DNA from: a virus | Lineage: Duplodnaviria > Heunggongvirae > Uroviricota > Caudoviricetes | IMG/VR virus record: IMGVR_UViG_2695420565_000013 | Reading direction: 5' to 3' (one strand) | Length of the DNA: 18,319 bases | Shown here: positions 1 to 16,106 of the stretch, piece after piece | How positions within the stretch are numbered: position 1 is the stretch's first letter | Layout: every line of letters starts with the position of its first letter | Notes under the pieces: generated by a model | Seen by the model: the letters and a program-made list of their open reading frames with translations, nothing else | What the model was told of the DNA's origin: nothing | The model's database searches: none | Translations under genes and position numbers: made by a program

Positions 1-101
1 CCTCCGCTATGTCCTTGACGTCATAGCCGACTGGCCGATAAACCGGGTCGGCGAACTGCTCCCCTGGCGCGTAGCACTGCCGACTGAATAACACATCCCC
101 G

Positions 102-248
102 TCAATACGGTTCTTGCTGCACGCTTACGGAGATATTCACGCAGGGAAAATATCTTTCCCCCTCCGGTGTTCTCACCACGAAGCCGCACGACTCCGCTGG
201 CGCACATCGCCGGGCGTGCGCCAGAATCGCTGATTCTGTCTCTGTCAT
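102..248 (-). pseudogene. K: Tail tip assembly protein K (lambda gpK-like), N-terminal fragment only: 48 codons then TGA at 102-104
   Basis: ATG at 246-248 lies 5 nt after the L stop. Translation MTETESAILAHARRCAPAESCGFVVRTPEGERYFPCVNIS matches the lambda gpK N-terminus as I recall it, then diverges (VSVQQEPY*). No JAMM/MPN HxH motif follows in any frame. Confidence 0.55.
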
Positions 249-253
249 GGGAT

Positions 254-952
254 TCACTGCGAAAGTTTGTTAATGGAAAGGAAGCCGCCAAAGTTGCCGA
301 CGTTATTGCGAAACTTACAGCCGCTCAGGCATTTGCTGCATTTATCCTTCGTGATATCGGAGGTCGGCTGGTCATATTCATCCGCGACCGCCGGACCGTG
401 ATAACCGCACTCATCACCGCGATAGGTCCAGGTGCAGGTATTAGCCAGCATGATGCGCCCCGGAAAAACAGCGCCGTCCGTTTCCGTCGGCGTGGACAGT
501 ACAAAAGAGGCACTCACCGCGCTCAGTTCGCTGCACTGCTCGATGCGCCAGCGGCTGATCACCTCCTGCTCCGGATCGGCGTCACTGTTTCCGTTGACGA
601 AGTTCACCGCATCCAGAAAACGGGCGTAAACCTTACGCCGGACCACCGTTCCTCCGACCAGACTCTGCAGGTCTTCCGCCATCCCGGTGACCATGCCGTG
701 CAGGTTAGAAACCGTCAGTGTCGGACGGGCAGCACTGCCTTTGCCGTTCAGTTCAAATCCCGTCCCCTGAATGGGATACGCCTGATACTGTCGCCCCTGC
801 CAGGTGACCGGCTCACCTTTATCGTTCTGCTCATTACAGAAAAAATAACGTTCTCCACCGACCACTGTCAGATCGATTTCCCAGAGCACCACCAGGGCTG
901 ACTGAGTGAGGCGTGTCGTCTCATGATGTGTTTCCTGTGGAATATCCTGCAT
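254..952 (-). CDS. L: Tail tip protein L (lambda gpL-like, 232 aa, C-terminal Cys cluster)
   Basis: ORF of 232 aa, MQDIPQET...CSKCLSGCKFRNNVGNFGGFLSINKLSQ, near-identical in length and sequence to lambda gpL as recalled. AGGAG Shine-Dalgarno 6 nt upstream of ATG 950-952. Confidence 0.9.
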   Translation of the reverse strand: MQDIPQETHHETTRLTQSALVVLWEIDLTVVGGERYFFCNEQNDKGEPVTWQGRQYQAYPIQGTGFELNGKGSAARPTLTVSNLHGMVTGMAEDLQSLVGGTVVRRKVYARFLDAVNFVNGNSDADPEQEVISRWRIEQCSELSAVSASFVLSTPTETDGAVFPGRIMLANTCTWTYRGDECGYHGPAVADEYDQPTSDITKDKCSKCLSGCKFRNNVGNFGGFLSINKLSQ

Positions 953-961
953 CAGAGACTC

Positions 962-1291
962 CTATGCCACGACCTGTTCAAAATCTGCCGTTATGGTTAC
1001 CCACAACGCCCCCACGCTTGCCGACCATTTACGACAAACCACCCTGATCGGCTTCCAGTCATAAGGTGGCGTCCACTGAAATGCGCGGACGCCACCGTGC
1101 CGTTCCAGAAAGGCTTTTAAAGATGGGTGTTCACATTTACGAACACGTATCGTCACGCTGTAAATCGACAACTGGTTATTCAGTCCCGCCGCACGACGCT
1201 GTTCATAACCATCGCCCAGCTTCACTGTCACCACTTTCGGCTCTGATACCACATTCATATCCGGGCGCACTTTCCAGTGAAATGTCTCCAT
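962..1291 (-). CDS. M: Minor tail protein M (lambda gpM-like, 109 aa)
   Basis: METFHWKVRPDMNVVSEPKVV...FQWTPPYDWKPIRVVCRKWS...ADFEQVVA parallels lambda gpM (MKTFRWKVKPGM...EFEQVVN). The start ATG overlaps the upstream stop as TAATG. Confidence 0.9.
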   Translation of the reverse strand: METFHWKVRPDMNVVSEPKVVTVKLGDGYEQRRAAGLNNQLSIYSVTIRVRKCEHPSLKAFLERHGGVRAFQWTPPYDWKPIRVVCRKWSASVGALWVTITADFEQVVA

Positions 1292-2898
1292 TACCGATAT
1301 GCTCCACTTAACCGACCACCATCACGGGCCTGCTGTTGCATAAAGTCCGCTGCCGCTTTTTTCCCAAGGTCATAAACCACCTTCAGGGCAGCCGGACCTA
1401 TCTGCCCGTTCGTGCCATCGTTATTGATCTCGATGTTGTACTGCGGGGCAAACATCGCCATACCTGAACCACCAATATCCGCCACAACCCCCAGCTTACC
1501 GTCAGCACCACGACGCAGTGGCAGAATGGCTTCAGGTCCAGCTTCCCCCATCACACCCGCGCCTTTTGCAAAAGCAAAAAACGTCGGACGGTTAACCACC
1601 GTGCCACTGTAACGACTCAAATCAGCAGACTGATAAATCCCCCCATTGGCATTCAGGGAAAGGCTGCTGAGATCAAATCCCAGTACACTGCCAATCCCTT
1701 TTATCGATTTCATCATGGTTGCCTGCGCCAGGATTTTCGCCATATCTGACAGCACCGAAGAGGTGAAGGATTTGAAGTTGAGTTTGCCGGTAGTGACAAA
1801 AGTTGCCAGGCCATTTCCCATGTTGCTGAAGGCTGATGAGAACACCTGTTCTGCTGTTCCTGCCGTATTGTCTGCATCCACGGTAAAATCCTGAAATGCA
1901 CGCAGGACTCCGTTTTTCCAGTTACCCTGCACAACTTCAAGCTGTTGCCAGTAACGGCGATTCTCATTCAGTTGTCGGTTCAGGCTCTCCGTCAGCGCCT
2001 GCTCGGCCTTTCTGTAGTCATCCGTGTTATATGTCCCTTTCTGCTCACTATCCCGCCTCAACTGCTCCAGCTGTTGCTGGTATTTCTGGCGAAGACTCAG
2101 TTGTACCTGATATCGCTGCCGCTGCTGATCACCCATACCCACCGTGGCGATATCCAGGTCATGTTGCTGACGCTGAGCGCGCTCTTCTTCAGCCAGTTGA
2201 CTGGTCAGCTGAATTGTTTTTTTCTTCAGATCGTTGAGTGCCGTTTGTTTCTGAAGCTCCTGCTGTTTTACATCCAGCAGCGTCAGTGCCTGCATCAGTT
2301 CATCTTTACGGGCCAGCACACTCTTTTCATCTGCCGTCAGTTTTTTCCCGTCCAGATCGCTGATGCGCTGCTGCAGAGCCAGAAGCTGTTTATGCGCTTC
2401 TGTCATCTTTTCAGTGGCAATGCCTGCTGACTGTCTTGCAGCAGCAATCTGTCCTTCCACCTGTGCCTGTTGCTGACTGTACTGCAGCAATAACCGGGTG
2501 GCCTCATCATTACGGGTTTCGCGTGTTTTTTTCTTACCGGATGCCAGGGCTTTCTCGTAACGTTCATTTTCACGTTGTATCGCCGCATCCCTGACAGCCT
2601 GGTCGGCGTACTGCATGGCATTAATACGCGCAATTTCACGCTGATGTCGTGCTGCTTCCGTTTCATTCATCCGGTTCAGTGCAGCATTTTCAGCATTACG
2701 TCGTTTCTGTTGCTCCTGATAATTCCGCTCTGCCTGCTCTTTTGCATCCTGCAAATCCTTCTGGCGTTTTTTCTCCTGAAGATCGTTAAGACGCTGCTGA
2801 TCGTATTCAACCTGAGAAGATGATGCGTCTTTTCGCCCGCGATACTTTCTCCTGTAAAGCGGTAATCTGTTCATCCAGCGAGTCTTCACGACCAATAT
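1291..2898 (-). CDS. H: Tail tape measure protein, C-terminal portion; in +1 frame relative to the N-terminal portion (frameshifted, possible pseudogene)
   Basis: 534-codon open frame with a long coiled-coil (Q/E/K/R-rich) region and a Gly-rich C-terminus, ending by overlapping the M start. It has no plausible start of its own: the frame opens just after a stop at 2899-2901. Confidence 0.7.
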   Translation of the reverse strand: MLVVKTRWMNRLPLYRRKYRGRKDASSSQVEYDQQRLNDLQEKKRQKDLQDAKEQAERNYQEQQKRRNAENAALNRMNETEAARHQREIARINAMQYADQAVRDAAIQRENERYEKALASGKKKTRETRNDEATRLLLQYSQQQAQVEGQIAAARQSAGIATEKMTEAHKQLLALQQRISDLDGKKLTADEKSVLARKDELMQALTLLDVKQQELQKQTALNDLKKKTIQLTSQLAEEERAQRQQHDLDIATVGMGDQQRQRYQVQLSLRQKYQQQLEQLRRDSEQKGTYNTDDYRKAEQALTESLNRQLNENRRYWQQLEVVQGNWKNGVLRAFQDFTVDADNTAGTAEQVFSSAFSNMGNGLATFVTTGKLNFKSFTSSVLSDMAKILAQATMMKSIKGIGSVLGFDLSSLSLNANGGIYQSADLSRYSGTVVNRPTFFAFAKGAGVMGEAGPEAILPLRRGADGKLGVVADIGGSGMAMFAPQYNIEINNDGTNGQIGPAALKVVYDLGKKAAADFMQQQARDGGRLSGAYR

Positions 2899-4345
2899 TC
2901 ATGGCCGCATCCCAGAAACGACTCCACAAATCAGACAGATACTTCAGCGTACTGCCAAGCGCATTGAGGTTATTATCAATATCCGCAGTACGCCGACCGG
3001 TTTCCTCTGCCAGTGCAGACATGGCTATCCGTGCAGCATCACTGGACCGTCCCTGATCCCCAAGGACACGTATCTGCTCAAGCTGAGTGGCAGTAAGAAA
3101 ATGCAGCTCATTGTCCAGAGCCTTCGCGGCATTTACAGGATCATCCTTCAGCCGCTTAAACTGATTTATGGTATCGCTGACCGACTGGCCAACCGATCGC
3201 TCCATCTGTGCGGCAGCTCTCGCCACCATACCGATATCGTTTCCACGAAATGCACCACTCCCCACCACCTGCGCCAGCGCACCGGCTGCAGCATGTTGCG
3301 TGATACCATTCCCGGAAATAGCACGACTGAGCGTCCACAGCTGCCCGGCAGTGACTCCGGCATAATGCCCCGTCAGCGACAACTGGCGGTTAAATTCTTC
3401 CCCCTCCTTCTGACCGTCATACCAGGCTTTACCCAGACCATAGACGGCCGCGGCAATACCGCCAATAACCCCGCCAAGCATCATGCCTTTCGGTGACATC
3501 AGTGTGTCTATCCATCCGGCACGGTTAGCCAGCGTTATCCCGGATCCCCTCAGCGCCCCTAAATTGCCGCGGGCCAGTTCACCTATCAGAACGCCTATCT
3601 CCTGGCGGGCTGCTGCACTTTTCAGACCCAGCGAATGCGTGGCTTTTCCTGCCTGCTCCATTTTGCGGATATACACTTCTGCAGCACTGCTTACCCCCAG
3701 CTGGGCTGCCTTGGCACGAAGCAACTCAGAAGATGAAAGATTCTGGCGGGTTGCCTGCTCTTTAAGCTGACGGATAAACGCCACTTTCTGTCGGGTAGCC
3801 TCTTCCTCAGCCTGTGTAAGAACACGGGTTTTCGCAGTAACCTCAGAAATCAGCGCCAGATAATCCTGCTGACCAATCCCGCCACTGTTTCTGGCCTGTC
3901 GGATCTGCTGCTGAATACGCTGTAATTCCTGCAGCCCCGCACTGGCCTGTTTCACACTGTCAATCTGACGATAAAACGCAGCAGCCGCTTTATCCTGAGC
4001 CTCCGCCAGAGCCATGGCCTGCGCCTGTTCCTCGCGCATTTTCTGGCTCAGCGCCTCCATGCGCTGGCGGGTTTTCTCCACCTCGCGGGCCATGCGTTCA
4101 TGAGCCTGTGCGTTCTTCTCCACCGTCTGCGCATGGACGGATGCGGCTGTTGCAGCCGAAGAAGTCGCCTGCGTTGTCTGCCGGGCGGCCTGAGTCTGAC
4201 GCTCCATAAAACGCTGCATACGGGCAGACGACCGTTCTGCATCGCTGGCGGCACCATTCAGAAGGTTTTTGATACGGGGAATTTCATTTTTAAACTCTGC
4301 CGCATCAATCCCCAAATCAATGACCAGGTTGGCTATCTGGTCCAT
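2807..4345 (-). CDS. H: Tail tape measure protein, N-terminal portion (ends at TGA 2807-2809, 89 nt into the other frame)
   Basis: ATG at 4343-4345 preceded by GGAGGT (7 nt spacer). The product MDQIANLVIDLGIDAAEFK... has a coiled-coil N-terminus and a Gly/Ala-rich hydrophobic segment (GMMLGGVIGGIAAAVYGLG) typical of tape measure proteins. Position between G/T and M matches lambda H. Confidence 0.75.
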   Translation of the reverse strand: MDQIANLVIDLGIDAAEFKNEIPRIKNLLNGAASDAERSSARMQRFMERQTQAARQTTQATSSAATAASVHAQTVEKNAQAHERMAREVEKTRQRMEALSQKMREEQAQAMALAEAQDKAAAAFYRQIDSVKQASAGLQELQRIQQQIRQARNSGGIGQQDYLALISEVTAKTRVLTQAEEEATRQKVAFIRQLKEQATRQNLSSSELLRAKAAQLGVSSAAEVYIRKMEQAGKATHSLGLKSAAARQEIGVLIGELARGNLGALRGSGITLANRAGWIDTLMSPKGMMLGGVIGGIAAAVYGLGKAWYDGQKEGEEFNRQLSLTGHYAGVTAGQLWTLSRAISGNGITQHAAAGALAQVVGSGAFRGNDIGMVARAAAQMERSVGQSVSDTINQFKRLKDDPVNAAKALDNELHFLTATQLEQIRVLGDQGRSSDAARIAMSALAEETGRRTADIDNNLNALGSTLKYLSDLWSRFWDAAMNIGREDSLDEQITALQEKVSRAKRRIIFSG

Positions 4346-4679
4346 AACGCACACCTCCGGAAATACCTTCCCCAAGATGCATCAGTTCTTCGTCCGTTCG
4401 CTCCGGTATCCCGTTCTCTTCCGGTAAAAGGCTGAAATCAGCCACCGCAGCATCACTGCTGCCGGACACCATTCTCACGATCAATGCCTTCAGCGAGGCA
4501 AACTGCGCATCCATCCACACATCACTGAAGCTCTGCATCCGGAAATAATCGCCCCACTCACCAAGCTCAGTGGCCGACATTTCCGACAGCATCCGCCGCC
4601 AGTCTGCCCGCCGGAACTCCCGGGCAAGCCGCATGACAAACTGCATTTCCCGCGTCAGGACTTTTCCGGCGTCAGCGCC
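4317..4679 (-). CDS. T: Tail assembly chaperone T domain, probably made only as a G-T fusion by -1 ribosomal frameshift near the end of G
   Basis: The -1 frame relative to G is open from 4679 to 4317 and overlaps the last codons of G. Its internal ATG at 4646 has no usable Shine-Dalgarno. The arrangement mirrors lambda G/GT. The likely slip site is the A AAG lysine codon (mRNA CCGGAAAAGUCC; + strand 4658-4669). Confidence 0.55.
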   Translation of the reverse strand, partial: GADAGKVLTREMQFVMRLAREFRRADWRRMLSEMSATELGEWGDYFRMQSFSDVWMDAQFASLKALIVRMVSGSSDAAVADFSLLPEENGIPERTDEELMHLGEGISGGVRYGPDSQPGH

Positions 4680-5044
4680 TCATGCTCATCATCCCCGGCA
4701 TTATCAATGGCCCCCATACCGCTCAGCGACAGAACCATCTCCGCCCCCGCCCCCAGGGCATCATACGACCATGTTGTAATAACGGATGCGCAAAGCGTCT
4801 CTACATCCTTAGACTGATCCGCATTCCACAGTGAGCGGGAAACCAGCCAGGCATTGATATCCATCCCCATCCGCAGAAAAGCAATCTGTCGTTCAGCCTC
4901 CGGCAGTTCTCCCTCCCCGGCATCAAACTTTGCCGTTCGCTGCTGAACAAACGCCAGATATTCAATTCTCTGCAGCCCGGACAGCTCACTGAGCACCACG
5001 GACTGTTTTTCATAATTAAACGTGTCCTGTTTCAGAAACATCAT
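4655..5044 (-). CDS. G: Tail assembly chaperone G (lambda gpG-like)
   Basis: MMFLKQDTFNYEKQSVVLSELSGLQRIEYLA... versus lambda gpG MFLKTESFEHNGVTVTLSELSALQRIEHLA...; located between V and the tape measure gene. Confidence 0.85.
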   Translation of the reverse strand: MMFLKQDTFNYEKQSVVLSELSGLQRIEYLAFVQQRTAKFDAGEGELPEAERQIAFLRMGMDINAWLVSRSLWNADQSKDVETLCASVITTWSYDALGAGAEMVLSLSGMGAIDNAGDDEHEALTPEKS

Positions 5045-5057
5045 GTTCTACACCTGC

Positions 5058-5081
5058 AAAAAAGCCCCGGATAACCGGGGC
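5058..5081 (-). terminator. Intrinsic terminator between major tail gene V and G
   Basis: Minus-strand RNA reads GCCCCGG-UUAU-CCGGGGC (7 bp GC stem, 4 nt loop) followed immediately by UUUUUU. It sits 20 nt after the V stop and 14 nt before the G start. Confidence 0.6.
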
Positions 5082-5101
5082 AAATGATGAGTATCGTCCT
5101 G

Positions 5102-5845
5102 TTAACCTGCGGCGCTGACAGTCACCGCAGCCACAGCCACAAAATTCCCGTCAGCGGTCATGCCCACAATGCTGACACTGCCCTGCTTCACGCCTTTCAC
5201 CGTGGCCACAAGCCCGTTCAGGGTCACCGTGGCAGTCTGTGGATCTGACGAATGCACACTGATCGCTTTGTCACTGGCTCCGTCAGGTTTTACTGTAAAG
5301 GTCAGCGTGGTGGTTGCTCCCACATTGACACTGGCAGATGCCGGTGCCACCGTCAGCCCGGTAACGCCCACGATTTCAGTGCCTTCCTCTGCCAGATACG
5401 GACGCCCCACACCGCTGATTTTCACTGTGCGGGTCATCACGTCTTTTGAGGCAATGGTTTTACCCAGTGAACTCAGCCAGCCACGGAAAACATCAACAGT
5501 ACCGTTGGGATATTTGATACGAAAAGCGCAGACTTCACCGGAGTCGAACAACTGAACCAGTTTTTTCTGCCCGCTGTCCCCCGGACGCCAGGCCAGCGTC
5601 GCCGAAGTATCACCGACTGATTTCTGCCCCTGGGTTGTCGTTTTCCAGTCTGCATCTTCATCATCGAGATAAGTGTCATCTTCTGCATCAGCGGTCATTT
5701 CGCCAGGTTGCAGATCCTTCACCATCGCAAGACGCAGCCAGTCAGTGTCCGATAAAGGGTTCGCAAACGCATCGCCCTTGCCGGTATACATCCAGAACGT
5801 CGTTCCCGCACCTTTCGTTTTTGCCAGTGGATTTGGTGTGGTCAT
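5102..5845 (-). CDS. V: Major tail protein V (lambda gpV-like) with C-terminal Ig-like (Big_2-type) domain
   Basis: From ATG 5843-5845 (AAGGAGG 5 nt upstream): MTTPNPLAKTKGAGTTFWMYTGKGDAFANPLSDTDW...YLDDEDADWKTTTQGQKS...NGTVDVFRGW... closely parallels lambda gpV. The ORF-track extension upstream (MIMRWPP...) overlaps U and is rejected. Confidence 0.9.
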   Translation of the reverse strand: MTTPNPLAKTKGAGTTFWMYTGKGDAFANPLSDTDWLRLAMVKDLQPGEMTADAEDDTYLDDEDADWKTTTQGQKSVGDTSATLAWRPGDSGQKKLVQLFDSGEVCAFRIKYPNGTVDVFRGWLSSLGKTIASKDVMTRTVKISGVGRPYLAEEGTEIVGVTGLTVAPASASVNVGATTTLTFTVKPDGASDKAISVHSSDPQTATVTLNGLVATVKGVKQGSVSIVGMTADGNFVAVAAVTVSAAG

Positions 5846-5855
5846 TACCACCTCC

Positions 5856-6257
5856 TTAATTCGTGTACGTGATCTGGTACGTGATTTCCGCCATCGCCCA
5901 GGTGGCCATCTCATTATCACGTTGATAGTTAAAACCGAGTGGGATCAGGGTGTCGATGAGTCCGGAAAGTGCTGGTACATCATTCAGGGCCGGGAAAATG
6001 GTGCTCTCCATCCACATATCCAGCTCTGAATCCGGTGCCTGTGCCCGGATGAAGACAGCAATATGCAGAACAGCCTGCCAGTCATCTTCATCCGTCATTT
6101 TTCCGGTGTACTGAGCATCACTCAGCCACACCGCCACGGCAGGCAGTTCCTGCGCATCAACAAATGCCGGAAGCCCGTCAAAAAACGTGGCGCTGTCTCC
6201 ACACTGTTCCCGAAGGCGTGCCAGTACGACCTGGCGGATTTGTGTATGTCGGTTCAT
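5856..6257 (-). CDS. U: Tail terminator protein U (lambda gpU-like)
   Basis: MNRHTQIRQVVLARLRE...ATFFDGLPAFVDAQELPAVAVWLSDAQYTG...ELDMWMESTIFPALNDVPALS parallels lambda gpU (MKHTELRAAVLDALEK...ATFFDGRPAVFDEADFPAVAVYLTGAEYTG). ATG at 6255-6257 overlaps the Z stop as ATGA; an upstream ATG at 6269 is also possible. Confidence 0.85.
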   Translation of the reverse strand: MNRHTQIRQVVLARLREQCGDSATFFDGLPAFVDAQELPAVAVWLSDAQYTGKMTDEDDWQAVLHIAVFIRAQAPDSELDMWMESTIFPALNDVPALSGLIDTLIPLGFNYQRDNEMATWAMAEITYQITYTN

Positions 6258-6832
6258 CGGGTCAGCCATAACCTCAGTTGTTGTTTCAGTGCATACCCCA
6301 GCTGTTTCGGCATTTCCGCAGCAATGATGCGGTCGCGGGCATCTTCAAATGCCTGTGTCAGCGGTCCGGACAGCGGGATTTTCACCACATCAATGGGGTA
6401 ACGATTTTTGCCATCAATACGCCGCATCACATGCCAGCGACCATTCGCCAGTTGCTGAATAAACGCATCCCGGAAAAGATATTTACCCACCTTCAGCACA
6501 CTGCCACGGTACTGCAGTTTTCCACCACGCCGGGCCAGTCTGACCCGGGCTGTCCCCAGCTTAATGGCAGGCAGATTGCCCCGGTTAACGCGGATCCTGG
6601 CCGTCATTTTTCCTGACGGACTGGCTTTAAACACCCGGACACGCTGACGTACCAGTTTCAGGGGGATCCCTTTCACCTGGTTATCTCCCGCAACGGTATT
6701 CCCGGCAACCTGCCGGGTGGCAACCGAGACCGCTTTCTGTGCCACACGGTTTATCGCCCATGCGCTGGCCTGTGGCACCATACGGGTATCAAGGCTGTTC
6801 AGATTGCGGATGGCATTCTCAAGCCCCTTCAT
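6254..6832 (-). CDS. Z: Tail completion protein Z (lambda gpZ-like, 192 aa)
   Basis: 192-aa basic protein lying between the FII-like gene and U, as in lambda. AGAGG Shine-Dalgarno 6 nt upstream of ATG 6830-6832. Assignment rests on size, position and recalled family features. Confidence 0.75.
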   Translation of the reverse strand: MKGLENAIRNLNSLDTRMVPQASAWAINRVAQKAVSVATRQVAGNTVAGDNQVKGIPLKLVRQRVRVFKASPSGKMTARIRVNRGNLPAIKLGTARVRLARRGGKLQYRGSVLKVGKYLFRDAFIQQLANGRWHVMRRIDGKNRYPIDVVKIPLSGPLTQAFEDARDRIIAAEMPKQLGYALKQQLRLWLTR

Positions 6833-6843
6833 CCCACACCTCT

Positions 6844-7119
6844 TTACTCAATAAAGATCATTGGCTTACCGTTAAAGCGTTCATGCCGTGTGACCGTCCA
6901 TTGTTGTCCGTCATAAACAACGCGATCCCCGCGCCGTGGGCGGTATCCCGAAGAAAACACCACCAGAGAGACCGCAGGTCCGGACAGAGCATTCAGCTCT
7001 GCCAGTGTTTCTCCCGGGATCACAGTCATATCGACATCATTAATCGAGGCTGTCTTTCCCATCTTTCTGACCGTGATAGCATCCATACGCGCTGCCAGCC
7101 GGGAAAAGGGATCAGACAT
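6844..7119 (-). CDS. Head-tail joining protein (lambda gpFII-like)
   Basis: 91-aa protein with ...MGKTASI...VVFSSG...RRGDRVVYDGQQWTV..., resembling the gpFII pattern (..MGTSATI.....LFV....RRGD.L.......W.V). Position immediately before Z. Its start overlaps the upstream gene by 8 nt. Confidence 0.55.
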   Translation of the reverse strand: MSDPFSRLAARMDAITVRKMGKTASINDVDMTVIPGETLAELNALSGPAVSLVVFSSGYRPRRGDRVVYDGQQWTVTRHERFNGKPMIFIE

Positions 7120-7435
7120 TGAGTTTTACCGGCACTTCTTCTGCACTGGTTCCGGCATCTGCCCAGACAACCCCGACCAGCGGATCAGAGCCGCTGTTAG
7201 TCAGCTGAACTTTTCCGGACTTCAGATAAACCTTCTTACCCGTTTTCATGTCATCCGTTTTCAGCTTAGGCAGCATAAACACACCTTCGGTCATGCCGTC
7301 GCCTGTTTCACCCTGTGGAATATCGGTCAGCGCCACCGCAAAAACATCGCCCACCTGCACCAGATCTCCGCTGCTGATGGCTGCACTGGCAACAATCGCC
7401 ACCGTTTTTCCTTCTTCTACAAAATTCTTTGCCAT
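7112..7435 (-). CDS. Small head-associated protein, DUF2190-like (107 aa)
   Basis: ATG at 7433-7435 with GGAGA 5 nt upstream: MAKNFVEEGKTVAIVASAAISSGDLVQVGDVFAVAL...GKKVYLKSGKVQLTN.... The ORF-track TTG start at 7480 is rejected. Composition and position (just after the capsid gene) fit DUF2190 proteins; function unknown. Confidence 0.5.
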   Translation of the reverse strand: MAKNFVEEGKTVAIVASAAISSGDLVQVGDVFAVALTDIPQGETGDGMTEGVFMLPKLKTDDMKTGKKVYLKSGKVQLTNSGSDPLVGVVWADAGTSAEEVPVKLNV

Positions 7436-7477
7436 AACTGTCTCCGCACAGCCCCGTTCAGGGGCTGATTTCAGGTA

Positions 7478-7498
7478 CAAAAAAAGCCCTTACGGGCT
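7478..7498 (-). terminator. Intrinsic terminator immediately after the capsid gene
   Basis: Minus-strand RNA AGCCC-GUAA-GGGCU (5 bp stem, GNRA-type tetraloop) followed by UUUUUUU, 24 nt after the capsid stop codon. A second U-less hairpin (CAGCCCC-UGAAC-GGGGCUG, + strand 7449-7467) lies just upstream of the next gene's Shine-Dalgarno. Confidence 0.5.
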
Positions 7499-7521
7499 AT
7501 CAGAGTTGTTGTCTGCGACGT

Positions 7522-9480
7522 TTACGCCGTACATTTCACCAGACCGCGGTGATCAACTGGCGCGACACCGGCGTCAATACGCACTTTCGTTGTCACGCCA
7601 TCCACACTGAAGCCCTCCATCTGATCAATATATGGCGTATCCACACCGTTGAGATAAGCCACTTCAATCGTATCGGAGCCTTTTGACGCAGCCAGGTAGA
7701 AGGTGGTCTGGCTGTTATCATCAAGACGAGGCTCTGCAATAACGGTCGCAAAATCTTTCACCGGGTTAATAATACCGGCGTTAATGTCAGCCCCCTTGAC
7801 ACTTGAGGAGCGAATGACCTGGTTAGCAACAGACTCCATCGCCGTCGGTACCAGTACGAACGCAGGACGAATATTCAGATGACGCTCCCCCTCTTTCTGA
7901 ACGCGCATCAACTGGCGGGCTTTATCCAGCGATGCCACATCCATTGCAGCGCTCTCCAGTACGTTTGCATGTTTCGCTTTATCGAACAGACTTACATTAT
8001 CTGTGGAGATTTTCGGGTTAGACGTCAGAATGGCATAAACCAGATCGGCAATAGTGGATTTCGCCGCACGGCCCAGTTTCATCGGGACATCGGTCAGCAT
8101 ATTCAGATCATCATTGATAATGGCCTGACGGGTGATACTGAACAGCTCGCCATAGGTCGCCAGTGCAATAGTGGCCTGTTTATCTCCGGTGGTGACGTAT
8201 TTATATTCCGCCCCTTCACGCACCTGACGCAGAGCACTGAAGCCCCCCATACCCACACGATGGGCAATTTTAAAATCAGACAACTGACCTTTCCGCGTCC
8301 ACTGTTCATAGGTTTCAGGGGCATCTTCCCAGCCCTGCAGAATGGCTTTGTTCGCAACATCCAGCAGAATATTACCGAAGTCAGACGTACTGTGTGTGAA
8401 CGCCGCACCGACCATCTGCATCGGGTTATAACCGGAAACCCCAATACCCCGTTCAGTTAGTGACATACGGGCATATTCACGCAGGGTCATCCCGTTGTAG
8501 ACATTATCACGTTCGGTTTTTTCAAATCCGGCACGCGCCATCAGCGCCTGGCGAATCCCGTCCCCCACAAAATTACCGTTACCGGCATAAATATGAGCCG
8601 GGGTATTTTTATTGGATGGCGTGGACTCGCGCCCCATCTCGTTCAACAGCTTTTCACGGGCCTGCTCCAGCGAACATTCAGGATCGGCAAGACACTGAGC
8701 CTGCAGCGTCTGATAACGCCCGCCAAACATGGCAAACAGATCATTAATACCGTTTACACGCGCTTTTTGCTCTGCCAGTACCTGCGCACGGATGCTGTTT
8801 TCATCCACCACGGGTGCTGCTGCCTGCACTGGCGTCCAGGAGGCTTCAGATTCATTATCCTGTACGCGTGGAGCACTGTTGCGTGGCGGAGTAATCATGT
8901 TTCGAATGGATTCCGGCATCTTTTTAAATTCCTCTGTACGTTTTGACTGAATACATGCCATTGCCTTAACGGCTGGCGTTACCTGATCAGCAAATCCATG
9001 TGCCAGACATTCGGCACCGGACATCCAGGTCTCATCCGCCAGCATGGCAGCAATTTCATCGGTGGTTTTCCCGGTTTTCTGTGCATAAGCGGGTAACAGA
9101 ACCGCCTCAACTTTATCGAGCAGGTCGGCATAGGTGCGCATGTCCTCCGCATCACCGCCCGTAAAGCCAAATGGTTTATGAATCATCATGAAGGTGTTTT
9201 CCGGCATAATGACCGGGTTTCCTACCATCGCAATGACCGACGCCATTGACGCCGCCACACCGTCGACATAAACGGTAATGGACGCACCATGTGTTTTCAG
9301 CGCATTAAAAATGGCGATGCCTTCAAAGACATCGCCACCCGGTGAATTAATATGGAGATTAATGTGGGTGATATCGCCCAGTGCATTCAGATCACTGATA
9401 AACTGCTTCGCTGTAACACCCCAGAAACCAATCTCGTCATAAATATAAATATCCGCGTCACTCTGGTGACCAGCCTGCAT
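7522..9480 (-). CDS. Prohead protease (ClpP/S14-like) fused to HK97-fold major capsid protein (about 652 aa)
   Basis: The N-terminal ~200 aa have ClpP-like motifs (IYIYDEIG..., INSPGGDVFEG..., GVAASMASVIAMVG, MMIHKP). A long central linker and a C-terminal ~300 aa capsid-like region follow. Start placed at ATG 9478-9480 (13 nt after the portal stop) rather than the ORF-track start, which overlaps the portal; the start is uncertain. Confidence 0.75.
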   Translation of the reverse strand: MQAGHQSDADIYIYDEIGFWGVTAKQFISDLNALGDITHINLHINSPGGDVFEGIAIFNALKTHGASITVYVDGVAASMASVIAMVGNPVIMPENTFMMIHKPFGFTGGDAEDMRTYADLLDKVEAVLLPAYAQKTGKTTDEIAAMLADETWMSGAECLAHGFADQVTPAVKAMACIQSKRTEEFKKMPESIRNMITPPRNSAPRVQDNESEASWTPVQAAAPVVDENSIRAQVLAEQKARVNGINDLFAMFGGRYQTLQAQCLADPECSLEQAREKLLNEMGRESTPSNKNTPAHIYAGNGNFVGDGIRQALMARAGFEKTERDNVYNGMTLREYARMSLTERGIGVSGYNPMQMVGAAFTHSTSDFGNILLDVANKAILQGWEDAPETYEQWTRKGQLSDFKIAHRVGMGGFSALRQVREGAEYKYVTTGDKQATIALATYGELFSITRQAIINDDLNMLTDVPMKLGRAAKSTIADLVYAILTSNPKISTDNVSLFDKAKHANVLESAAMDVASLDKARQLMRVQKEGERHLNIRPAFVLVPTAMESVANQVIRSSSVKGADINAGIINPVKDFATVIAEPRLDDNSQTTFYLAASKGSDTIEVAYLNGVDTPYIDQMEGFSVDGVTTKVRIDAGVAPVDHRGLVKCTA

Positions 9481-9493
9481 CCTGAACCAGGAA

Positions 9494-11002
9494 TTATTCT
9501 TCGGACTGGTCGTCGGTGTGCTGCGGCTCCTGTCGTTTCGTTGCGGCACTACTGCCTCCTTTATCACTGGCCGGATCGGTATCAAATACCAGATCCAGCT
9601 TGCGGTTTTCATCAATTTCGGCCTTGCGCCGACGTTTGACATCATCCGGATTACGACCACCAGCACGTACCCAGTCTGATTCTGTCGCCGCTCCACCACG
9701 AATCTGGATTTTCCAGGCCTCAGCCTCCTTAACAGGGTCAATCCACGGCATCACTGGTCCGGAATACACCGCGGTATACAGTGAAGAACGGTCAAGATCG
9801 CGGGGTAGCCTGATAACACCGGATGCCACAGCCTGTTTCAGCCATGCACGATACATCGGGCGGGTGACGGCACCAATAAACCAGTCCTGCAGGATCAGGT
9901 AGCCATCAGTGGATTCAACCAGCTCCTGACGCTGGGCGCTGTAAGTGCCGTTATAGTTGCGCGCTGTACTGGAAAAACTCAGACGACTGCCCGCCGCCAC
10001 GGCACGCAACTGACCATTACGAAAAGTTTCAAGGTTAGGATTGGGGCGATCCGACTTCACCATTCCGATTTCTTCGCCGGGTTTCAGATCGTCGTAAATA
10101 ATGCCCGGCTGAATGGTAAGCTCACGTTCATTCTCCTTTCTGCCATTACCATCCGGTTCATAGCTCTGCCCGTCGCCTTTCCGGATGTACATCCCCAGAG
10201 CAGCGGCGATCCTTGCTGCAGTCAGCTCAGAATCTTCATATTCTTTCAGGGCACTGAGGCGGATCAGCACACCGGACAACAAAGACGTCCCGCGCATCTG
10301 GTGCAGACGGCGAACAAATTTAAGATGCAGCATTCGCTCTGCATCCACTTCTTTGGTTTCCATCTGCCGTCCGGATACGGGACGGCTTTTATACACCAGA
10401 TATTTTTCGGGACGCCCCCAGTCATCAACAAACACGCCCTGATTCAGCCTGTTGCTCTCATCACTAGTCATGGGAATAAAGTCCGGCTCGAGCGCCTCCA
10501 GCCAGAAATGAACACCGGCAGAAGGCGCCAGGCTGTTTATGCGCCCGGAAACCATCTGGGCAAACACCTCACCATCGCGCAGCCAGGTACGAAGCATCAG
10601 ACGTTCCAGCATCGGACGGGTAAACTGCCCGGTGACTTCCGGGCTGACAGACCATTCACTCCATCGGGTGCGAATCTCCGCAGCCAGGTCACGGGCAATG
10701 GCCCCATTGCGTAATACCGGATGTGGCTCGACAATAATCCCGTTTTTCCCCACCACCCGTTCTTCCAGCTTGTCAAATACACCAATAACCAGATCGTGGT
10801 TGTTATCAAGGTAACGGGCCTGCTCACGTAACGACACGGCCCCGTACTGGCTTAACTGGTCGGCAGTTCGGTTCTCCCGTCGGGCTTTGTGTGTCCGCGT
10901 CGTTTTTACGGCCTCATAAGCCTGGATCACCGCACGGGAACGCAGCCTTGCCGCTTTCCATCCTGGTGAAAAAACGCCAATCACATCATCAAGAATTGCC
11001 AT
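9494..11002 (-). CDS. Portal protein (502 aa)
   Basis: Large ORF directly after gpW and before the protease-capsid gene. ATG at 11000-11002 overlaps the W stop (TGATG) and is preceded by GAGG (5 nt spacer). The ORF-track GTG start at 11074 would overlap W by 73 nt and is rejected. Assignment by size and synteny. Confidence 0.8.
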   Translation of the reverse strand: MAILDDVIGVFSPGWKAARLRSRAVIQAYEAVKTTRTHKARRENRTADQLSQYGAVSLREQARYLDNNHDLVIGVFDKLEERVVGKNGIIVEPHPVLRNGAIARDLAAEIRTRWSEWSVSPEVTGQFTRPMLERLMLRTWLRDGEVFAQMVSGRINSLAPSAGVHFWLEALEPDFIPMTSDESNRLNQGVFVDDWGRPEKYLVYKSRPVSGRQMETKEVDAERMLHLKFVRRLHQMRGTSLLSGVLIRLSALKEYEDSELTAARIAAALGMYIRKGDGQSYEPDGNGRKENERELTIQPGIIYDDLKPGEEIGMVKSDRPNPNLETFRNGQLRAVAAGSRLSFSSTARNYNGTYSAQRQELVESTDGYLILQDWFIGAVTRPMYRAWLKQAVASGVIRLPRDLDRSSLYTAVYSGPVMPWIDPVKEAEAWKIQIRGGAATESDWVRAGGRNPDDVKRRRKAEIDENRKLDLVFDTDPASDKGGSSAATKRQEPQHTDDQSEE

Positions 11003-11220
11003 CAGAACCTCGCCAGCCGGTACCCGGGATGCCCCCGTCGTCGTGTAATCAGAGCCGCAAGGCGGCGCTCCCACTCCTGCCGTCCCTGCCGGATCTCAGA
11101 TAAGTTTTCCATGGTCATCTGCTGACCATTAAAGGTGACGGATTTTCCGTCCAGCACCGCCATTTCAGCTTCCGTATAACGCTGAATCATGGCTTCGATA
11201 TCATTCTGGTTCATAACCAT
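11002..11220 (-). CDS. W: Head-tail joining protein W (lambda gpW-like)
   Basis: About 70-aa protein ending ...ALITRRRGHPGYRLARF, compared with lambda gpW ...QTGMTQRRRGPAGFYV. Lies between terminase large subunit and portal as in lambda. Start ATG overlaps the TerL stop (ATGGTTATGA). Confidence 0.7.
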   Translation of the reverse strand: MVMNQNDIEAMIQRYTEAEMAVLDGKSVTFNGQQMTMENLSEIRQGRQEWERRLAALITRRRGHPGYRLARF

Positions 11221-13310
11221 CCTCCGGAAGTCAGCCAGGGGTTAACATCGTCAGTTACTGTTTTCTTCCGTTTTTGTTTTTTAACAGGCGTGGATACCGG
11301 TTCCGGTGAGGATGACGGTTCGGTACTGTCCTGGACACACTCCAGCCAGGTCTCCCGGCTCGCCCACTCCGGTGCATCCGGCCAGCGGATCTTTTCGTAT
11401 CCATGCAGAATGACCAGAGCCTCGGCATACACCATCAGGTCAAAAGCTTCGTTGGCACCGCGACCCGGCTTACTCCATTTCCCGTCACTGCTCCGCTCTT
11501 CATACGTCAGTTCGTCGTAAAACCAGCTCCCCAGCCAGTCAGGGAAATGCACATAGCCTGGACCTGGCGAGTCACGCCATAACGCGTTATTCACCCGGTC
11601 TTTCAGGGCATCCGTCTGAAGAAGCCAGAGCGGCACATCACCTGCGGCCTGCGCCCGGCGGCCCGTTCGTCCGGTGTTATCAGGGAATGTACGGCTGATC
11701 AGTTTTGCGCGCCGGATGCTGTCACCCTTAAACAGGTAAATACGTTTACCAAGGCCATCACGACGGCAACGACGCCAGAATTTATAGGCATTATCAGTGA
11801 CCCCGTCTTCACCGCCGGAGTCCACCGCCATTGCCATCAGTCGCATTTGTTGAGAAGGATCGGAGGCCAGCGCCCAGCTTTTATGAAAAACATCCGTCAG
11901 CAGGACATCCCAGTCTTCCGGATAGCTGGCCGGATCAATTCGCTGGCTCTCCCCGTCGCAGTCACTGCGCAATGACTGCGTGATGTTGTAACGATCAATA
12001 ATCCAGCGTTCGCCACGACTGCCATAGCCCGTTACCTGAACCACAAAACGGCGATGACGTCCCGCCTGCACATCCACTGTCGCCACAAGGAAATTAACGC
12101 CATCCGGCACACTGCGGGAAGGAACTGGCTCTGCCCGCTGCTCAAGCAGTTCACTTTTTCGTTGCTCCATGCTGGCACGAGGAAGATAAGGCAATCCCCA
12201 GTCGGTGTTGATAACCGCCCTGAGTGTTTCTTCGCTTCCTGTCGCTTCATACTCCTGTTCTGCAGTCAGTAATTTGTAAACCAGTTGCGCCCAGGTCTGA
12301 TACGCAGCAGCTGGCCCTTCCATCCAGAAACTGGCGATACGGGAGCGGCGCGGTTCACCGGAAACGTTGCCGTTACGATCAATGACCTGACCTTCACGCA
12401 ACCAGACTCCTGCACTATTGAGCTCACGCTTTTTCTCCGCAGTGATAATGCCGCTGCAGTGCGGGCAAAGTAGATACGCCGCCTCACTGGCTTTAAAGGG
12501 ATCCGGTTCATTACGGTAGCCGGTCATGGCATCCATGGCTGGCTGAAAATATTCACCGCAGTGCGGACATGACCAGTACCAGCGGCGGCGGTCACCACGA
12601 TTGTAAAGGGAAAGAATACCAGTCGTCGGTGGCGCTTCATGAGGCGACTTACGTCGCCATTTGCTGTCGCAGATGTCACGTCCCGGCGAGCTCTCCACCA
12701 GAGTCATCCCAGCGGACATAAATGTGGTGGTACGTTTTGAGGCCAGGGAGAAACCATCACCCTCGCTGTCGATATTCTCCGGAAAACGGTCGTAATCGGT
12801 TAAGGCGACAAACCGGTAATCCGACGACGACATAATGTTGACCGAGGGCCAACCAATTTTAAGGAACGAGCCATCCCTGAACGTCTTATCATGGACATTA
12901 TTGTCGTTACGACGTGGACTCATTCTTTTCTTTACCGCCGCACTGCTTCTGAACGTTCTGTCGAGGCGCTTTTTAGAATGCTCGCGGGCCTTATCTTCGG
13001 TCATCTGCACAACGAGCATGTCCGAAGGATCGCAAACGATGGTATAGACAATCCATCCATCGATCAGACCAATGGTCTTCCCTGTTCGCGCAGGACCAAC
13101 AAAAATCACCGCATCGTATTCACGCGATGCCAGGCAGTTCATGGGCTCAATGATGTAGGGTGTCAGTTCAGGATCCCATGGCACCGAGTTACCAGCCCCC
13201 TTGGGAACACGCATGAATTTTTTAACAGCCTCCGAAATCGGCATGCGACGTGGTGGGGAAAATCCTGCCGATATGTCCCTTCCCAAATTTCGGGCTGATG
13301 AAAAACCCAT
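11211..13310 (-). CDS. Terminase large subunit (699 aa)
   Basis: 699-aa ORF with Walker A-like motif VGPARTGKT and paired Cys motifs (CPHCGEYF...CPHCSG). AGGAGG Shine-Dalgarno 4 nt upstream of ATG 13308-13310. Directly follows the small subunit gene. Confidence 0.9.
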   Translation of the reverse strand: MGFSSARNLGRDISAGFSPPRRMPISEAVKKFMRVPKGAGNSVPWDPELTPYIIEPMNCLASREYDAVIFVGPARTGKTIGLIDGWIVYTIVCDPSDMLVVQMTEDKAREHSKKRLDRTFRSSAAVKKRMSPRRNDNNVHDKTFRDGSFLKIGWPSVNIMSSSDYRFVALTDYDRFPENIDSEGDGFSLASKRTTTFMSAGMTLVESSPGRDICDSKWRRKSPHEAPPTTGILSLYNRGDRRRWYWSCPHCGEYFQPAMDAMTGYRNEPDPFKASEAAYLLCPHCSGIITAEKKRELNSAGVWLREGQVIDRNGNVSGEPRRSRIASFWMEGPAAAYQTWAQLVYKLLTAEQEYEATGSEETLRAVINTDWGLPYLPRASMEQRKSELLEQRAEPVPSRSVPDGVNFLVATVDVQAGRHRRFVVQVTGYGSRGERWIIDRYNITQSLRSDCDGESQRIDPASYPEDWDVLLTDVFHKSWALASDPSQQMRLMAMAVDSGGEDGVTDNAYKFWRRCRRDGLGKRIYLFKGDSIRRAKLISRTFPDNTGRTGRRAQAAGDVPLWLLQTDALKDRVNNALWRDSPGPGYVHFPDWLGSWFYDELTYEERSSDGKWSKPGRGANEAFDLMVYAEALVILHGYEKIRWPDAPEWASRETWLECVQDSTEPSSSPEPVSTPVKKQKRKKTVTDDVNPWLTSGGWL

Positions 13311-13318
13311 TATTCCTC

Positions 13319-13846
13319 CTAGAGACTCTCTCCTTCCTCATCAGGAATTAATTCAGCAGCACAAGCCTCGTAGGATTTTTCCTGAAGAGTGTATCGCAGG
13401 TCATCAATGGCCTGCTGTACAACGCCGACGGCCTGAGGAGTCAGGGCGCAATCGCGTTCAAGAACATCCGGAATTGTCTCCAGAACCTGGACGACAGCCT
13501 TTCTCATGGACGAATAGACGATGACTACTTCATCAACGGGGATGAGTTTTCGCTGCTCCTTTTCCAGCTTGATCCTTTCATTTTCAGATTGGTACCAGTC
13601 CTTTCTCTCTTTCGGCTCCATACGGGATGGATCATGAACAGAGTCTGCTGCCTCATGCTTCACACTAAACAGGGCTGGCCCGACATGCTGCAGGGCGTAA
13701 ACGGGGTTCCCCCTGACAGTCGCAGCCACAGGAGTGTTAGCCGCGAGGAGCCGTTTTTTTACTGTGTCCCGGTGAAGCCCAAAGGCCTCAGCGATTTTAA
13801 AAACACTCCAGTAATAAGCATCACCGATCCCGCTCACATTTGACAT
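13319..13846 (-). CDS. Terminase small subunit (about 175 aa)
   Basis: Start placed at ATG 13844-13846 (GGAG, 6 nt spacer), giving MSNVSGIGDAYYWSVFKIAEAFGLHRDTVKKRL... with an N-terminal helix-turn-helix-like segment. Immediately upstream of the large subunit. In K-12 the Qin gene at this position is the pseudogene nohQ. Confidence 0.7.
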   Translation of the reverse strand: MSNVSGIGDAYYWSVFKIAEAFGLHRDTVKKRLLAANTPVAATVRGNPVYALQHVGPALFSVKHEAADSVHDPSRMEPKERKDWYQSENERIKLEKEQRKLIPVDEVVIVYSSMRKAVVQVLETIPDVLERDCALTPQAVGVVQQAIDDLRYTLQEKSYEACAAELIPDEEGESL

Positions 13847-14070
13847 AAGCAACTCCATCTGGCAGGTGAAAATCATGTTTATTTATATATTTCAATTAAT
13901 TGCAAACTGGTCTAATGACAGGGAGAAAGAAATATTGTACAGGTGAAAAGAGAAATAACTTTTAATTATCAATAAATTACCAAACATGCTGCCGCCGCCA
14001 TGGAAATGCAAAAACTAGCCTTTTTCCGCGACGCTCCCGCCCGTGGCAGGGGCCCCCACCGGGAGGACCC

Positions 14071-14094
14071 GACAGCCTGACAGCCTGACAGCCG
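14071..14094. repeat. Three tandem copies of GACAGCCT (third copy GACAGCCG) inside a GC-rich island
   Basis: Read directly: gacagcct gacagcct gacagccg at 14071-14094. Preceded by GGGGCCCCC and CCGCCGCC elements (about 13990-14070), in an otherwise AT-rich 540-bp non-coding region upstream of the terminase genes. Confidence 0.6.
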
Positions 14095-14229
14095 TGATGA
14101 GCATCTGATACAGCGCTTTACATAATGGCATAGGAATAATTCAGAAGGACATCACAGCATGCCCACACAAATTAGTGTGAGTGTCCTGTTTCTTCCTACG
14201 CACAGGACTGACGAGCATGAGGGGAAAAT

Positions 14230-14397
14230 ATGCGAACCATAAATGCCTCATCTTCAGCAATGCAACCGGCATCCGAACAGGACGATATTGTAAATTCACC
14301 TAATTACGAGGACATTGCAGTAGTTGAATTGCAGCTCTGTATTAGCCTGACAGTGACAGAATGCGATATTGACTCTGTCACAGGTGAAATAGTTTGA
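14230..14397 (+). CDS. Hypothetical small acidic protein (55 aa); speculative
   Basis: ATG 14230 preceded by GAGGGG (about 6 nt spacer). Encodes MRTINASSSAMQPASEQDDIVNSPNYEDIAVVELQLCISLTVTECDIDSVTGEIV. Below the ORF-track size cutoff. No recognised family. Confidence 0.25.
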   Translation: MRTINASSSAMQPASEQDDIVNSPNYEDIAVVELQLCISLTVTECDIDSVTGEIV

Positions 14398-14417
14398 ATG
14401 ATTAGCAGTTATGGTGC

Positions 14418-14624
14418 TCAGTCAACCACCAGGGAATAATCCTTCGAATTCTTATCGTGCTTCACCAACGCTGCCTCAATTGCCCTGAATGCTTCCAGAG
14501 ACACCTGATGTTCTATACATGCAATTACAACATCCGGGTAACTCATAGAAATGGTGCTATTAAGCATATTTTTTACACGAATCAGATCCAACGAGACTTC
14601 ATCAGCAGATTGTTCTTTATTCAT
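14418..14624 (-). CDS. ynfO: Small hypothetical protein (68 aa) at the position of Qin ynfO
   Basis: ATG 14622-14624 with GGAG 7 nt upstream: [26 protein letters not shown].... Symbol assigned from synteny with the K-12 Qin order (nohQ-ynfO-ydfO-gnsB-ynfN-cspI) as I recall it; sequence identity not checked. Confidence 0.55.
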
Positions 14625-14924
14625 TTTGTCGCTCCATGCGTTTGCTCGTCATCTAGCGGTTAAAATATTACTTCAAATCTTACTGCATAAAAGAGGAAAA
14701 GTATGAAAGTTTGAGTACATCGACCTTACATACATCTGTCGGTTGCATATCCCTCCTGGATGCCAGCAAGGCTCAATTTTGTTACGCAATCAACACTATT
14801 CATTAAAAACAGGCTTAATATTTGACATAAATCATCAACAAAACACAAAGAGGTCAGACCAGATTGAAACAATAAACACGATAATGCTAACTACGCGCCA
14901 TCGTATCACATGGAAGGTTTACCA

Positions 14925-15335
14925 ATGGCTCAGGCTGCCATTTTTAAAGAAATATTCGATCAAGTGCGTAAAGATTTAAACTGTGAATTATTTTATTCTG
15001 AGCTAAAACGTCACAATGTCTCACTTTATATTTACTATTTAGCCACAGATAATATTCACATTGTGTTAGAAAACGACAACATAGTGTTAGTAAAAGGACT
15101 CAAAAAGGTTGTAAATGTTAAATTCTCCAGAAACAAACATCTTATAGAGACCTCCTATAATAAGTTGAAATCAAAAGAAATCACATTTCAACAATACAGG
15201 GAAAATCTTGCTAAAGCAGGAGTTTTCCGATGGGTTACAAATATCCAGGAACACCAAAGATATTACTATGCCTTTGATAACTCATTACTATTTACTGAAA
15301 GCATCCAGAAAACTACACAGATCTTACCACGCTAA
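14925..15335 (+). CDS. ydfO: DUF1398 family protein (YdfO/YbcV-like, about 136 aa)
   Basis: Only plus-strand gene in the island. Start placed at the second ATG (14925; GGAAGG 7 nt upstream) giving [18 protein letters not shown]...; the ORF-track start is 14910. Size and position match YdfO/YbcV (DUF1398) of lambdoid prophages. Confidence 0.6.
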
Positions 15336-15486
15336 ACCATAACGTCCGGCTTCTCTCACTCCTGAGCCGGACTGCATTGGTTTAATAAAAACCATCAACA
15401 ATTGTGATTTAGATATTCGGAACCATTCAAATATAACAAAACCCCGTAAAAACGAGGTTTATGGATAAATTTTATTATTGAATACA

Positions 15487-16062: not shown

Positions 16063-16106
16063 GATGTTACCGTAGTATGTGAGTATCCATCGAATAGATA
16101 CCAAGC

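What the first reader, a model, noticed from the sequence alone, without database searches (positions are those of the whole stretch)
2807..2901. Tape measure gene is split into two overlapping frames (+1 shift), probably at a T4 homopolymer
The N-terminal part (stop at 2807-2809) and the C-terminal part (frame opens after a stop at 2899-2901) overlap by about 90 nt, and the second part has no start of its own. Removing one base within this overlap fuses them into a single protein of about 1040 aa. The best candidate site is the homopolymer TTTT at 2830-2833 (mRNA GCGAAAAGACGC); with three A's the junction would read ...ITALQEKVSRAKDASSSQVEYDQQRL.... This is either a genuine pseudogenising insertion, a sequencing error, or, least likely, programmed +1 frameshifting.
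Basis: seen in the sequence. Interest (0 to 1): 0.6.

Follow-up and report, generated by a model that had tools for sequence, protein, structure and literature searches.

The report
Tape measure gene broken by 11-bp deletion
The tail tape measure gene of this E. coli prophage is split into two reading frames by a real 11-base deletion, not by an extra base in the T run, so this is an ordinary, very recent case of prophage gene decay.

Summary
On the minus strand the tape measure gene (window 4345..1291) is split into a 512-aa N-terminal ORF, with its stop at 2809-2807, and a C-terminal frame that opens after the stop at 2901-2899. The two overlap by 89 nt and are offset by +1.

The proposed cause is wrong. 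Near-identical E. coli prophages, the phages mEp460 and cdtI, and the more distant Gifsy-1 all have one uninterrupted gene here (3066 nt, 1021 aa in the closest relatives). The window lacks 11 bases (mRNA TCCCCTGGACG) between 2827 and 2826. The A4/T4 run at 2830-2833 is identical in the intact E. coli copies. The true junction reads ...SRAKRLPWTASSSQ..., not ...SRAKDASSSQ....

The same truncated protein and junction occur on 8 contigs, from an NCBI assembly and two Logan assemblies of sequencing runs. One of these contigs is a SNP away from the window, so a sequencing error is very unlikely. None of 5,426 complete E. coli genomes carries the deletion. All 23 other genes in the window are intact.

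Verdict: a recent, lineage-specific pseudogenising deletion that should abolish tail assembly. Nothing points to programmed frameshifting. Interest is low.

The parts
1291..4345 (-). Whole tape measure (lambda gpH-like) pseudogene. It is 3055 nt here against 3066 nt in intact orthologues.
   Evidence: Collinear at 99.6% with single CDS annotated 'phage tail tape measure protein' (1021 aa) in E. coli B1_2, FHI_NMBU_03 and OkiPb01717. Re-inserting the 11 bases restores a 1021-aa ORF.
2807..4345 (-). N-terminal ORF of 512 aa. It ends in 7 out-of-frame residues (RRIIFSG) and a TGA at 2809-2807.
   Evidence: Pfam TMP_2 at 169 bits. The exact protein is found on 8 contigs and as CTW37824.1/CTW88358.1.
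1291..2898 (-). C-terminal reading frame (535 codons), open from just after the TGA at 2901-2899. It has no start codon of its own in orthologues.
   Evidence: Pfam TMP_4 and Tape_meas_lam_C. In orthologues this is the continuous second half of the gene.
2826..2827 (-). Deletion junction. Eleven bases (mRNA TCCCCTGGACG, encoding part of K-R-L-P-W-T-A) are missing between c2827 and g2826.
   Evidence: Alignments with L001, L002, L003, mEp460, cdtI and Gifsy-1.
2830..2833 (-). It is unchanged relative to the intact E. coli genes aligned, so it is not the lesion.
   Evidence: GCGAAAAGAC is identical in the window, OkiPb01717, FHI_NMBU_03, mEp460 and cdtI.
2810..2898 (-).
   Evidence: Read directly.

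Best explanation
The window is a complete contig from a draft E. coli genome. It carries the late (head, tail, lysis) region of a lambdoid prophage of the mEp460 / cdtI / Qin type.

Its tape measure gene suffered a single 11-bp deletion (mRNA TCCCCTGGACG, between window 2827 and 2826). Translation therefore leaves the correct frame after Lys-505, adds 7 wrong residues and stops at 2809-2807. This gives a 512-aa N-terminal fragment that lacks the TMP_4 and lambda-type C-terminal domains. The second half of the gene has no start of its own and is not expected to be made.

A lambda-type tail needs one continuous tape measure protein to nucleate tube polymerisation on the tail tip and to set tail length. 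That requirement is established knowledge and was not tested here. By inference, the prophage can no longer build tails on its own and is defective.

The mutation is very recent and confined to a narrow lineage. Shown: the deletion, its reality in several assemblies, and its absence elsewhere. Inferred: the loss of function.
For: 1. All top hits among 1,821 E. coli genomes that cover at least 80% of the query span 3312 nt against 3301 nt of query. They are annotated as one tape measure CDS. The CDS is 3066 nt, 1021 aa.
2. Base-level alignment shows a single 11-nt gap plus one synonymous SNP against strain B1_2.
3. The 11 bases are present, and the tape measure ORF is continuous, in phages mEp460 and cdtI and, in diverged form, in Salmonella Gifsy-1. 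All 20 phage records that cover the region do so as one uninterrupted 477-nt translated piece.
4. Five intact proteins of the 3,366-member 90% cluster were read, and all have SRAKRLPWTASSSQ.
5. The exact truncated protein sits on 8 contigs. Three were read: NCBI GCA_001285425.1, Logan SRR11041451 and Logan ERR10017103. All three carry the identical junction, and the SRR contig differs from the window by 1 SNP in 11,988 nt.
6. All 23 other CDS in the window are intact, and 22 are identical in protein to strain OkiPb01717. The window differs from that strain by only 7 SNPs and two 1-bp intergenic homopolymer indels over 18.1 kb.
7. Re-inserting the 11 bases restores a 1021-aa ORF.
Against: - No reads were inspected directly. 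The reality of the deletion rests on agreement between assemblies.
- Loss of tail assembly is inferred from lambda biology and not measured.
- Complementation by another lambdoid prophage in the same genome cannot be excluded. E. coli genomes hold up to 7 related tape measure genes.
- The deletion is not flanked by a clean direct repeat. GAC...GAC would predict a 10-nt deletion, not 11, so the mutational mechanism is not explained.
Confidence: 0.93

Rival explanations
1. Sequencing or assembly error: the real genome has an intact tape measure gene and the 11 bases were lost in the draft assembly.
For: The window is a short-read draft contig. Two other differences from the closest relative are 1-bp homopolymer-length differences.
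Against: An 11-bp loss in non-repetitive sequence is not a typical read or assembler error. The same junction appears in an NCBI assembly and in two Logan assemblies of sequencing runs with unrelated run accessions, one of which is 1 SNP away from the window. The protein has two NCBI accessions, CTW37824.1 and CTW88358.1. A de Bruijn collapse of two intact alleles cannot create a deletion that neither of them has.
Confidence: 0.03
2. Frameshift rescue: ribosomes slip +1 at AAA_AGA_C (2833-2827). Lys-tRNA can re-pair on the A4 run and the rare AGA codon sits in the A site. This would give a ~1017-aa protein (...SRAKDASSSQ...) in amounts sufficient for some tail assembly, either by chance or as a programmed event.
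For: The heptamer formally fits a Ty1-like +1 context (own knowledge of +1 sites, not tested). It lies inside the 89-nt overlap, and the resulting ORF is open for 1017 codons. Losing 4 residues would hardly change tail length.
Against: The same AAAAGAC is present in the intact E. coli orthologues aligned, where no shift is needed, so it was not selected for shifting. No orthologue is split. No Shine-Dalgarno-like stimulator lies at the prfB-type 3-nt spacing; the nearest AGGAG is about 17 nt upstream. The allele is rare and recent, which is the pattern of decay and not of a conserved recoding signal.
Confidence: 0.03
3. Functional split: the two halves are made as separate proteins, the second from an internal TTG (2895 or 2754), and together substitute for the tape measure protein.
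For: A gene caller did call a 487-aa product starting at the TTG at 2754.
Against: No orthologue has two genes or an internal start here. The called TTG has an AAGGA only 1 nt upstream, which is poor spacing. Length determination by one continuous tape measure protein is the established model (own knowledge).
Confidence: 0.01

Closest known systems
Tape measure protein of lambdoid phages mEp460 (AFM76050.1), cdtI (orf13, BAF63346.1) and of many E. coli prophages (for example WP_053902950.1); a lambda gpH homologue
   Same: Same gene, same position between the G/T chaperone genes and the gpM/gpL tail tip genes. The 159-aa stretch around the site is 97.5% (mEp460) and 98.1% (cdtI) identical in protein, and the gene is 99.6% identical in DNA to the B1_2 prophage copy. 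Same Pfam domains: TMP_2, TMP_4, Tape_meas_lam_C.
   Different: The window copy lacks 11 nt and is out of frame after codon 505. All the named relatives are single ORFs of 1018-1021 aa.
Gene decay in defective or cryptic lambdoid prophages of E. coli (for example Qin, whose cspI-ynfN-gnsB-rzpQ-rrrQ module is also present here)
   Same: A small indel inactivates an essential virion gene in an otherwise lambdoid prophage. Qin-type accessory and lysis genes sit next to it.
   Different: Here decay has only just begun. One lesion was found, and all 23 other genes of the 18-kb late region are intact. Classical cryptic prophages have lost most of the late region (own knowledge).
Programmed frameshifts in phage tail genes (lambda G/GT -1 frameshift) and the +1 frameshift of prfB
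   Same: Two overlapping frames within a tail gene cluster. A genuine G/T overlapping pair lies immediately upstream, at 4317-5041.
   Different: Programmed sites are conserved across orthologues. This split is absent from every orthologue examined and is explained by a deletion.

Membership tests
Lambda gpH-type tail tape measure protein gene | Pfam TMP_2 in the N-terminal half, and TMP_4 plus Tape_meas_lam_C in the C-terminal half | tested here: met
   TMP_2 169 bits (cut-off 30.2), Tape_meas_lam_C 80 bits (cut-off 23), TMP_4 64 bits (cut-off 27).
Lambda gpH-type tail tape measure protein gene | Position downstream of the G/T chaperone pair and upstream of gpM/gpL homologues | tested here: met
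   T 4317-4646, G 4655-5041, M 962-1291, L 254-952.
Lambda gpH-type tail tape measure protein gene | One continuous ORF encoding the whole protein (needed for function) | tested here: not met
   The frame is broken at 2827|2826 by an 11-nt deletion, so this is a pseudogene of the family.
Programmed +1 ribosomal frameshift site | The two-frame arrangement is conserved in orthologues | tested here: not met
   The top-listed E. coli genome hits and the three prophage copies fetched, 20 phage records and 5 intact cluster members are all single-frame here.
Programmed +1 ribosomal frameshift site | A shift-prone P-site codon followed by a slowly decoded or stop A-site codon | tested here: inconclusive
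   AAA_AGA_C is present, but it is identical in the intact E. coli orthologues aligned. Shifting efficiency was not measurable here.
Programmed +1 ribosomal frameshift site | A stimulatory element, such as a Shine-Dalgarno-like sequence about 3 nt upstream as in prfB | tested here: not met
   The nearest AGGAG is about 17 nt upstream of AAA_AGA (read).
Homopolymer-length frameshift (slipped-strand or sequencing-type 1-bp indel) | The homopolymer differs in length from that of intact orthologues | tested here: not met
   The A4 run is identical in the window and in the four intact E. coli and phage copies aligned.

The most novel reading that the evidence does not exclude
The AAA_AGA_C heptamer just 5' of the deletion, with a slippery Lys codon on an A4 run and a rare Arg codon next, lets a small share of ribosomes shift +1. 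The 'pseudogene' would then still yield some ~1017-aa tape measure protein and the prophage would remain weakly viable. This would be an accidental case of a frameshift mutation being rescued by translational leakiness.
Probability: 0.03. Interest if true: 0.35.

Novelty: already known. Interest (0 to 1): 0.1.

Why it matters
It matters mainly for annotation. The two ORFs should be annotated as one frameshifted tape measure pseudogene, and the prophage should be scored as probably defective for tail assembly although its late region otherwise looks complete. The 11-bp deletion is also a convenient marker for the narrow E. coli lineage that carries it. It raises no new biological question.

Tried and rejected
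1. One-base insertion at the A4/T4 run. Rejected: the run has the same length in the four intact E. coli and phage copies aligned.

2. A natural length polymorphism at this site. The 90% cluster holds both 1018-aa and 1021-aa forms, but the 3-aa difference lies in the variable C-terminal module (...GFDLSSLSLNANGG versus ...PFDFVANADGG) and not at the junction.

3. Wider distribution of the deletion allele. Exact-junction scans of genome contigs (two patterns) and of metagenome contigs found nothing. No complete E. coli genome gave a full-length gap-free match to the 120-nt junction query; the best full-length matches were 90.8% identical, which is the 11-nt gap.

4. A simple direct-repeat slippage mechanism. 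GAC...GAC flanks the site but would predict a 10-nt deletion, not 11. The placement of the 11-nt gap is unambiguous (by inspection). The mutational mechanism is left unexplained.

5. An RNA element at the site. An Rfam gathering scan of the whole window found only a cspA thermoregulator far away.

6. Other broken genes that would point to a generally poor assembly or an old cryptic prophage. None was found.

Full report
**Observation.** The genes in this part of the window run on the minus strand. An ORF from 4345 ends ...GCG AAA AGA CGC ATC ATC TTC TCA GGT TGA, with the stop at 2809-2807. Orthologues use the ATG at 4345, while the ORF lister starts at a TTG at 4375. A second frame, +1 relative to the first, opens just after a TGA at 2901-2899 and runs to a stop at 1293-1291. 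Both frames are open over 2898..2810, which is 89 nt. The A4 run (T4 on the + strand) is at 2833-2830. Deleting one A does fuse the frames, into 1017 codons. The N-terminal part carries Pfam TMP_2. The C-terminal part carries TMP_4 and Tape_meas_lam_C. Together they are the two halves of one lambda gpH-type tape measure gene.

**What the lesion is.** A megablast of window 1200-4500 against 5,426 complete E. coli genomes found 1,821 genomes covering at least 80% of the query. Every top hit spans 3312 nt for 3301 nt of query and is annotated as a single 'phage tail tape measure protein'. In strains B1_2, FHI_NMBU_03 and OkiPb01717 that CDS is 3066 nt, or 1021 aa.
- Base-level alignment shows one gap. 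The window lacks 11 bases, TCCCCTGGACG on the mRNA strand, between c2827 and g2826.
- Against B1_2, the only other difference in the gene is a synonymous GTG/GTA change at 2843.
- GCGAAAAGAC, which includes the A4 run, is identical in the window and in the intact E. coli and phage copies aligned. The homopolymer is therefore not the lesion.
- Re-inserting the 11 bases restores a 1021-aa ORF that reads ...ALQEKVSRAKRLPWTASSSQVEYDQQRL....

Five intact proteins of the 3,366-member 90%-identity cluster all read SRAKRLPWTASSSQ. The 1018-aa versus 1021-aa length polymorphism lies elsewhere, in the C-terminal module. A tblastn of a 159-aa segment spanning the site gave 20 phage records that cover at least 80% of it in a single uninterrupted translated piece. 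These include mEp460, cdtI, Ayreon, phi458, Tritos, HannyBb and Salmonella Gifsy-1 and Gifsy-2. In mEp460, cdtI and Gifsy-1 the annotated gene is one CDS. The DNA alignment shows the 11 bases in all of them, diverged in Gifsy-1 (CGCCCTGGACG). No orthologue has two genes or an internal start at this position.

**Real mutation or error?**
- The exact 512-aa truncated protein is on record under two NCBI accessions, CTW37824.1 and CTW88358.1, both E. coli. Its longest contig is 18,319 nt, the length of this window.
- It is encoded on 8 contigs. Three were read: NCBI GCA_001285425.1, Logan SRR11041451 and Logan ERR10017103.
- All three carry the identical junction. The SRR contig differs from the window by one SNP in 11,988 nt, so it is not the same sequence re-used.
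- An 11-nt loss in non-repetitive sequence that recurs in separately produced assemblies is not a sequencing artefact.
- The allele is rare. No complete E. coli genome has it. Exact-junction scans of one genome per species and of JGI metagenome contigs found nothing.

**Context.** The window is the late region of a lambdoid prophage of the mEp460/cdtI type, joined to Qin-type lysis and cold-shock genes. Its gene order is gpL, gpM, tape measure, T, G, tube protein, U, Z, head-tail joining genes, ClpP-capsid fusion, portal, large terminase, DUF1441, then gnsB-ynfN-ymcF-cspI-rzpQ-rrrQ. Over 18.1 kb it differs from strain OkiPb01717 by 7 SNPs, the 11-nt deletion and two 1-bp length differences in intergenic homopolymers. 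All 23 other CDS are open, and 22 are identical in protein to OkiPb01717. The tape measure gene is therefore the only broken gene, and the break is very recent.

**Mechanism and consequence.**
- Shown: the deletion shifts the frame after Lys-505. Seven wrong residues (RRIIFSG) follow, and then a stop.
- Inferred from established lambda biology (tape measure protein as tail-length ruler, Katsura and Hendrix 1984; G/GT chaperones, Xu, Hendrix and Duda 2004; cited from my own knowledge, not read here): the truncated product keeps the N-terminal part but lacks the C-terminal domain that anchors in the tail tip complex. Tail initiators therefore cannot form, and the prophage should make only tail-less heads unless another resident lambdoid prophage supplies a compatible tape measure protein.
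- Not explained: how the deletion arose. The flanking GAC...GAC repeat would predict a 10-nt loss, not 11.

**Rivals.**
- Sequencing error is set at about 3%, for the reasons above.
- Programmed or accidental +1 frameshifting is also about 3%. AAA_AGA_C does look like a Ty1-type +1 context: Lys-tRNA can re-pair on the A run and a rare AGA codon follows. However, the identical heptamer sits in the intact E. coli orthologues aligned, no orthologue is split, and there is no prfB-like Shine-Dalgarno element at the right spacing.
- A functional two-protein split is about 1%. The only support is a gene caller's choice of a TTG at 2754 with a badly spaced AAGGA.

**Comparison with what is known, and novelty.** This is a frameshifted pseudogene of a well-known family inside a well-known kind of prophage. 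It is the first step of the prophage decay that produced elements such as Qin. It meets the domain and synteny criteria of a gpH-type tape measure gene but fails the criterion of one continuous ORF. It fails the conservation criterion for a programmed frameshift. Nothing here is new in kind. The value is in correct annotation and as a lineage marker.

**Verdict.** Interest is 0.1.

Noticed in passing
window 4317-5041 (-), candidate slip site 4661-4669: The G (4655-5041) and T (4317-4646) tail chaperone genes lie just upstream of the tape measure gene. The T frame is -1 relative to G and stays open back across the G stop. The only slip-like sequence at the end of G is CCG_GAA_AAG (GGAAAAG), not lambda's G_GGA_AAG. 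A GGGAAAT lies just after the G stop.
   Followed up: partly
window 16307-16691 (-): Rfam cspA thermoregulator (RF01766, 114 bits against a gathering score of 78). It covers the 5' leader and start of the prophage cold-shock gene cspI (16334-16546).
   Followed up: no
window ~14037-14039 and ~16592-16598: The only other indels against the closest relative (OkiPb01717) are 1-bp length differences in intergenic homopolymers, C3 versus C4 and A7 versus A8. They could be natural polymorphism or read errors. Neither touches a gene.
   Followed up: partly
window 1-127 and 18213-18319: The two ends of the contig do not align with the closest relatives (the 99.9% hits cover 128-18212 only). They do align in other E. 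coli prophages, for example in O39:NM F8704-2. This indicates mosaic module boundaries in gpK and in the ydfR/essD lysis region, and probably explains why short-read contigs break there.
   Followed up: no
window 2358 (end of L005 and L006): The two Logan contigs that carry the deletion both end at the same point inside the C-terminal half of the tape measure gene (window 2358). This suggests a repeat shared with another prophage tape measure gene in those genomes, which could be a complementing copy.
   Followed up: no
window 7522-9549 and 9494-11002 (-): The ClpP-like prohead protease / major capsid fusion gene overlaps the 3' end of the portal gene by 56 nt. This is identical to the arrangement in relatives and is not a lesion.
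   Followed up: yes
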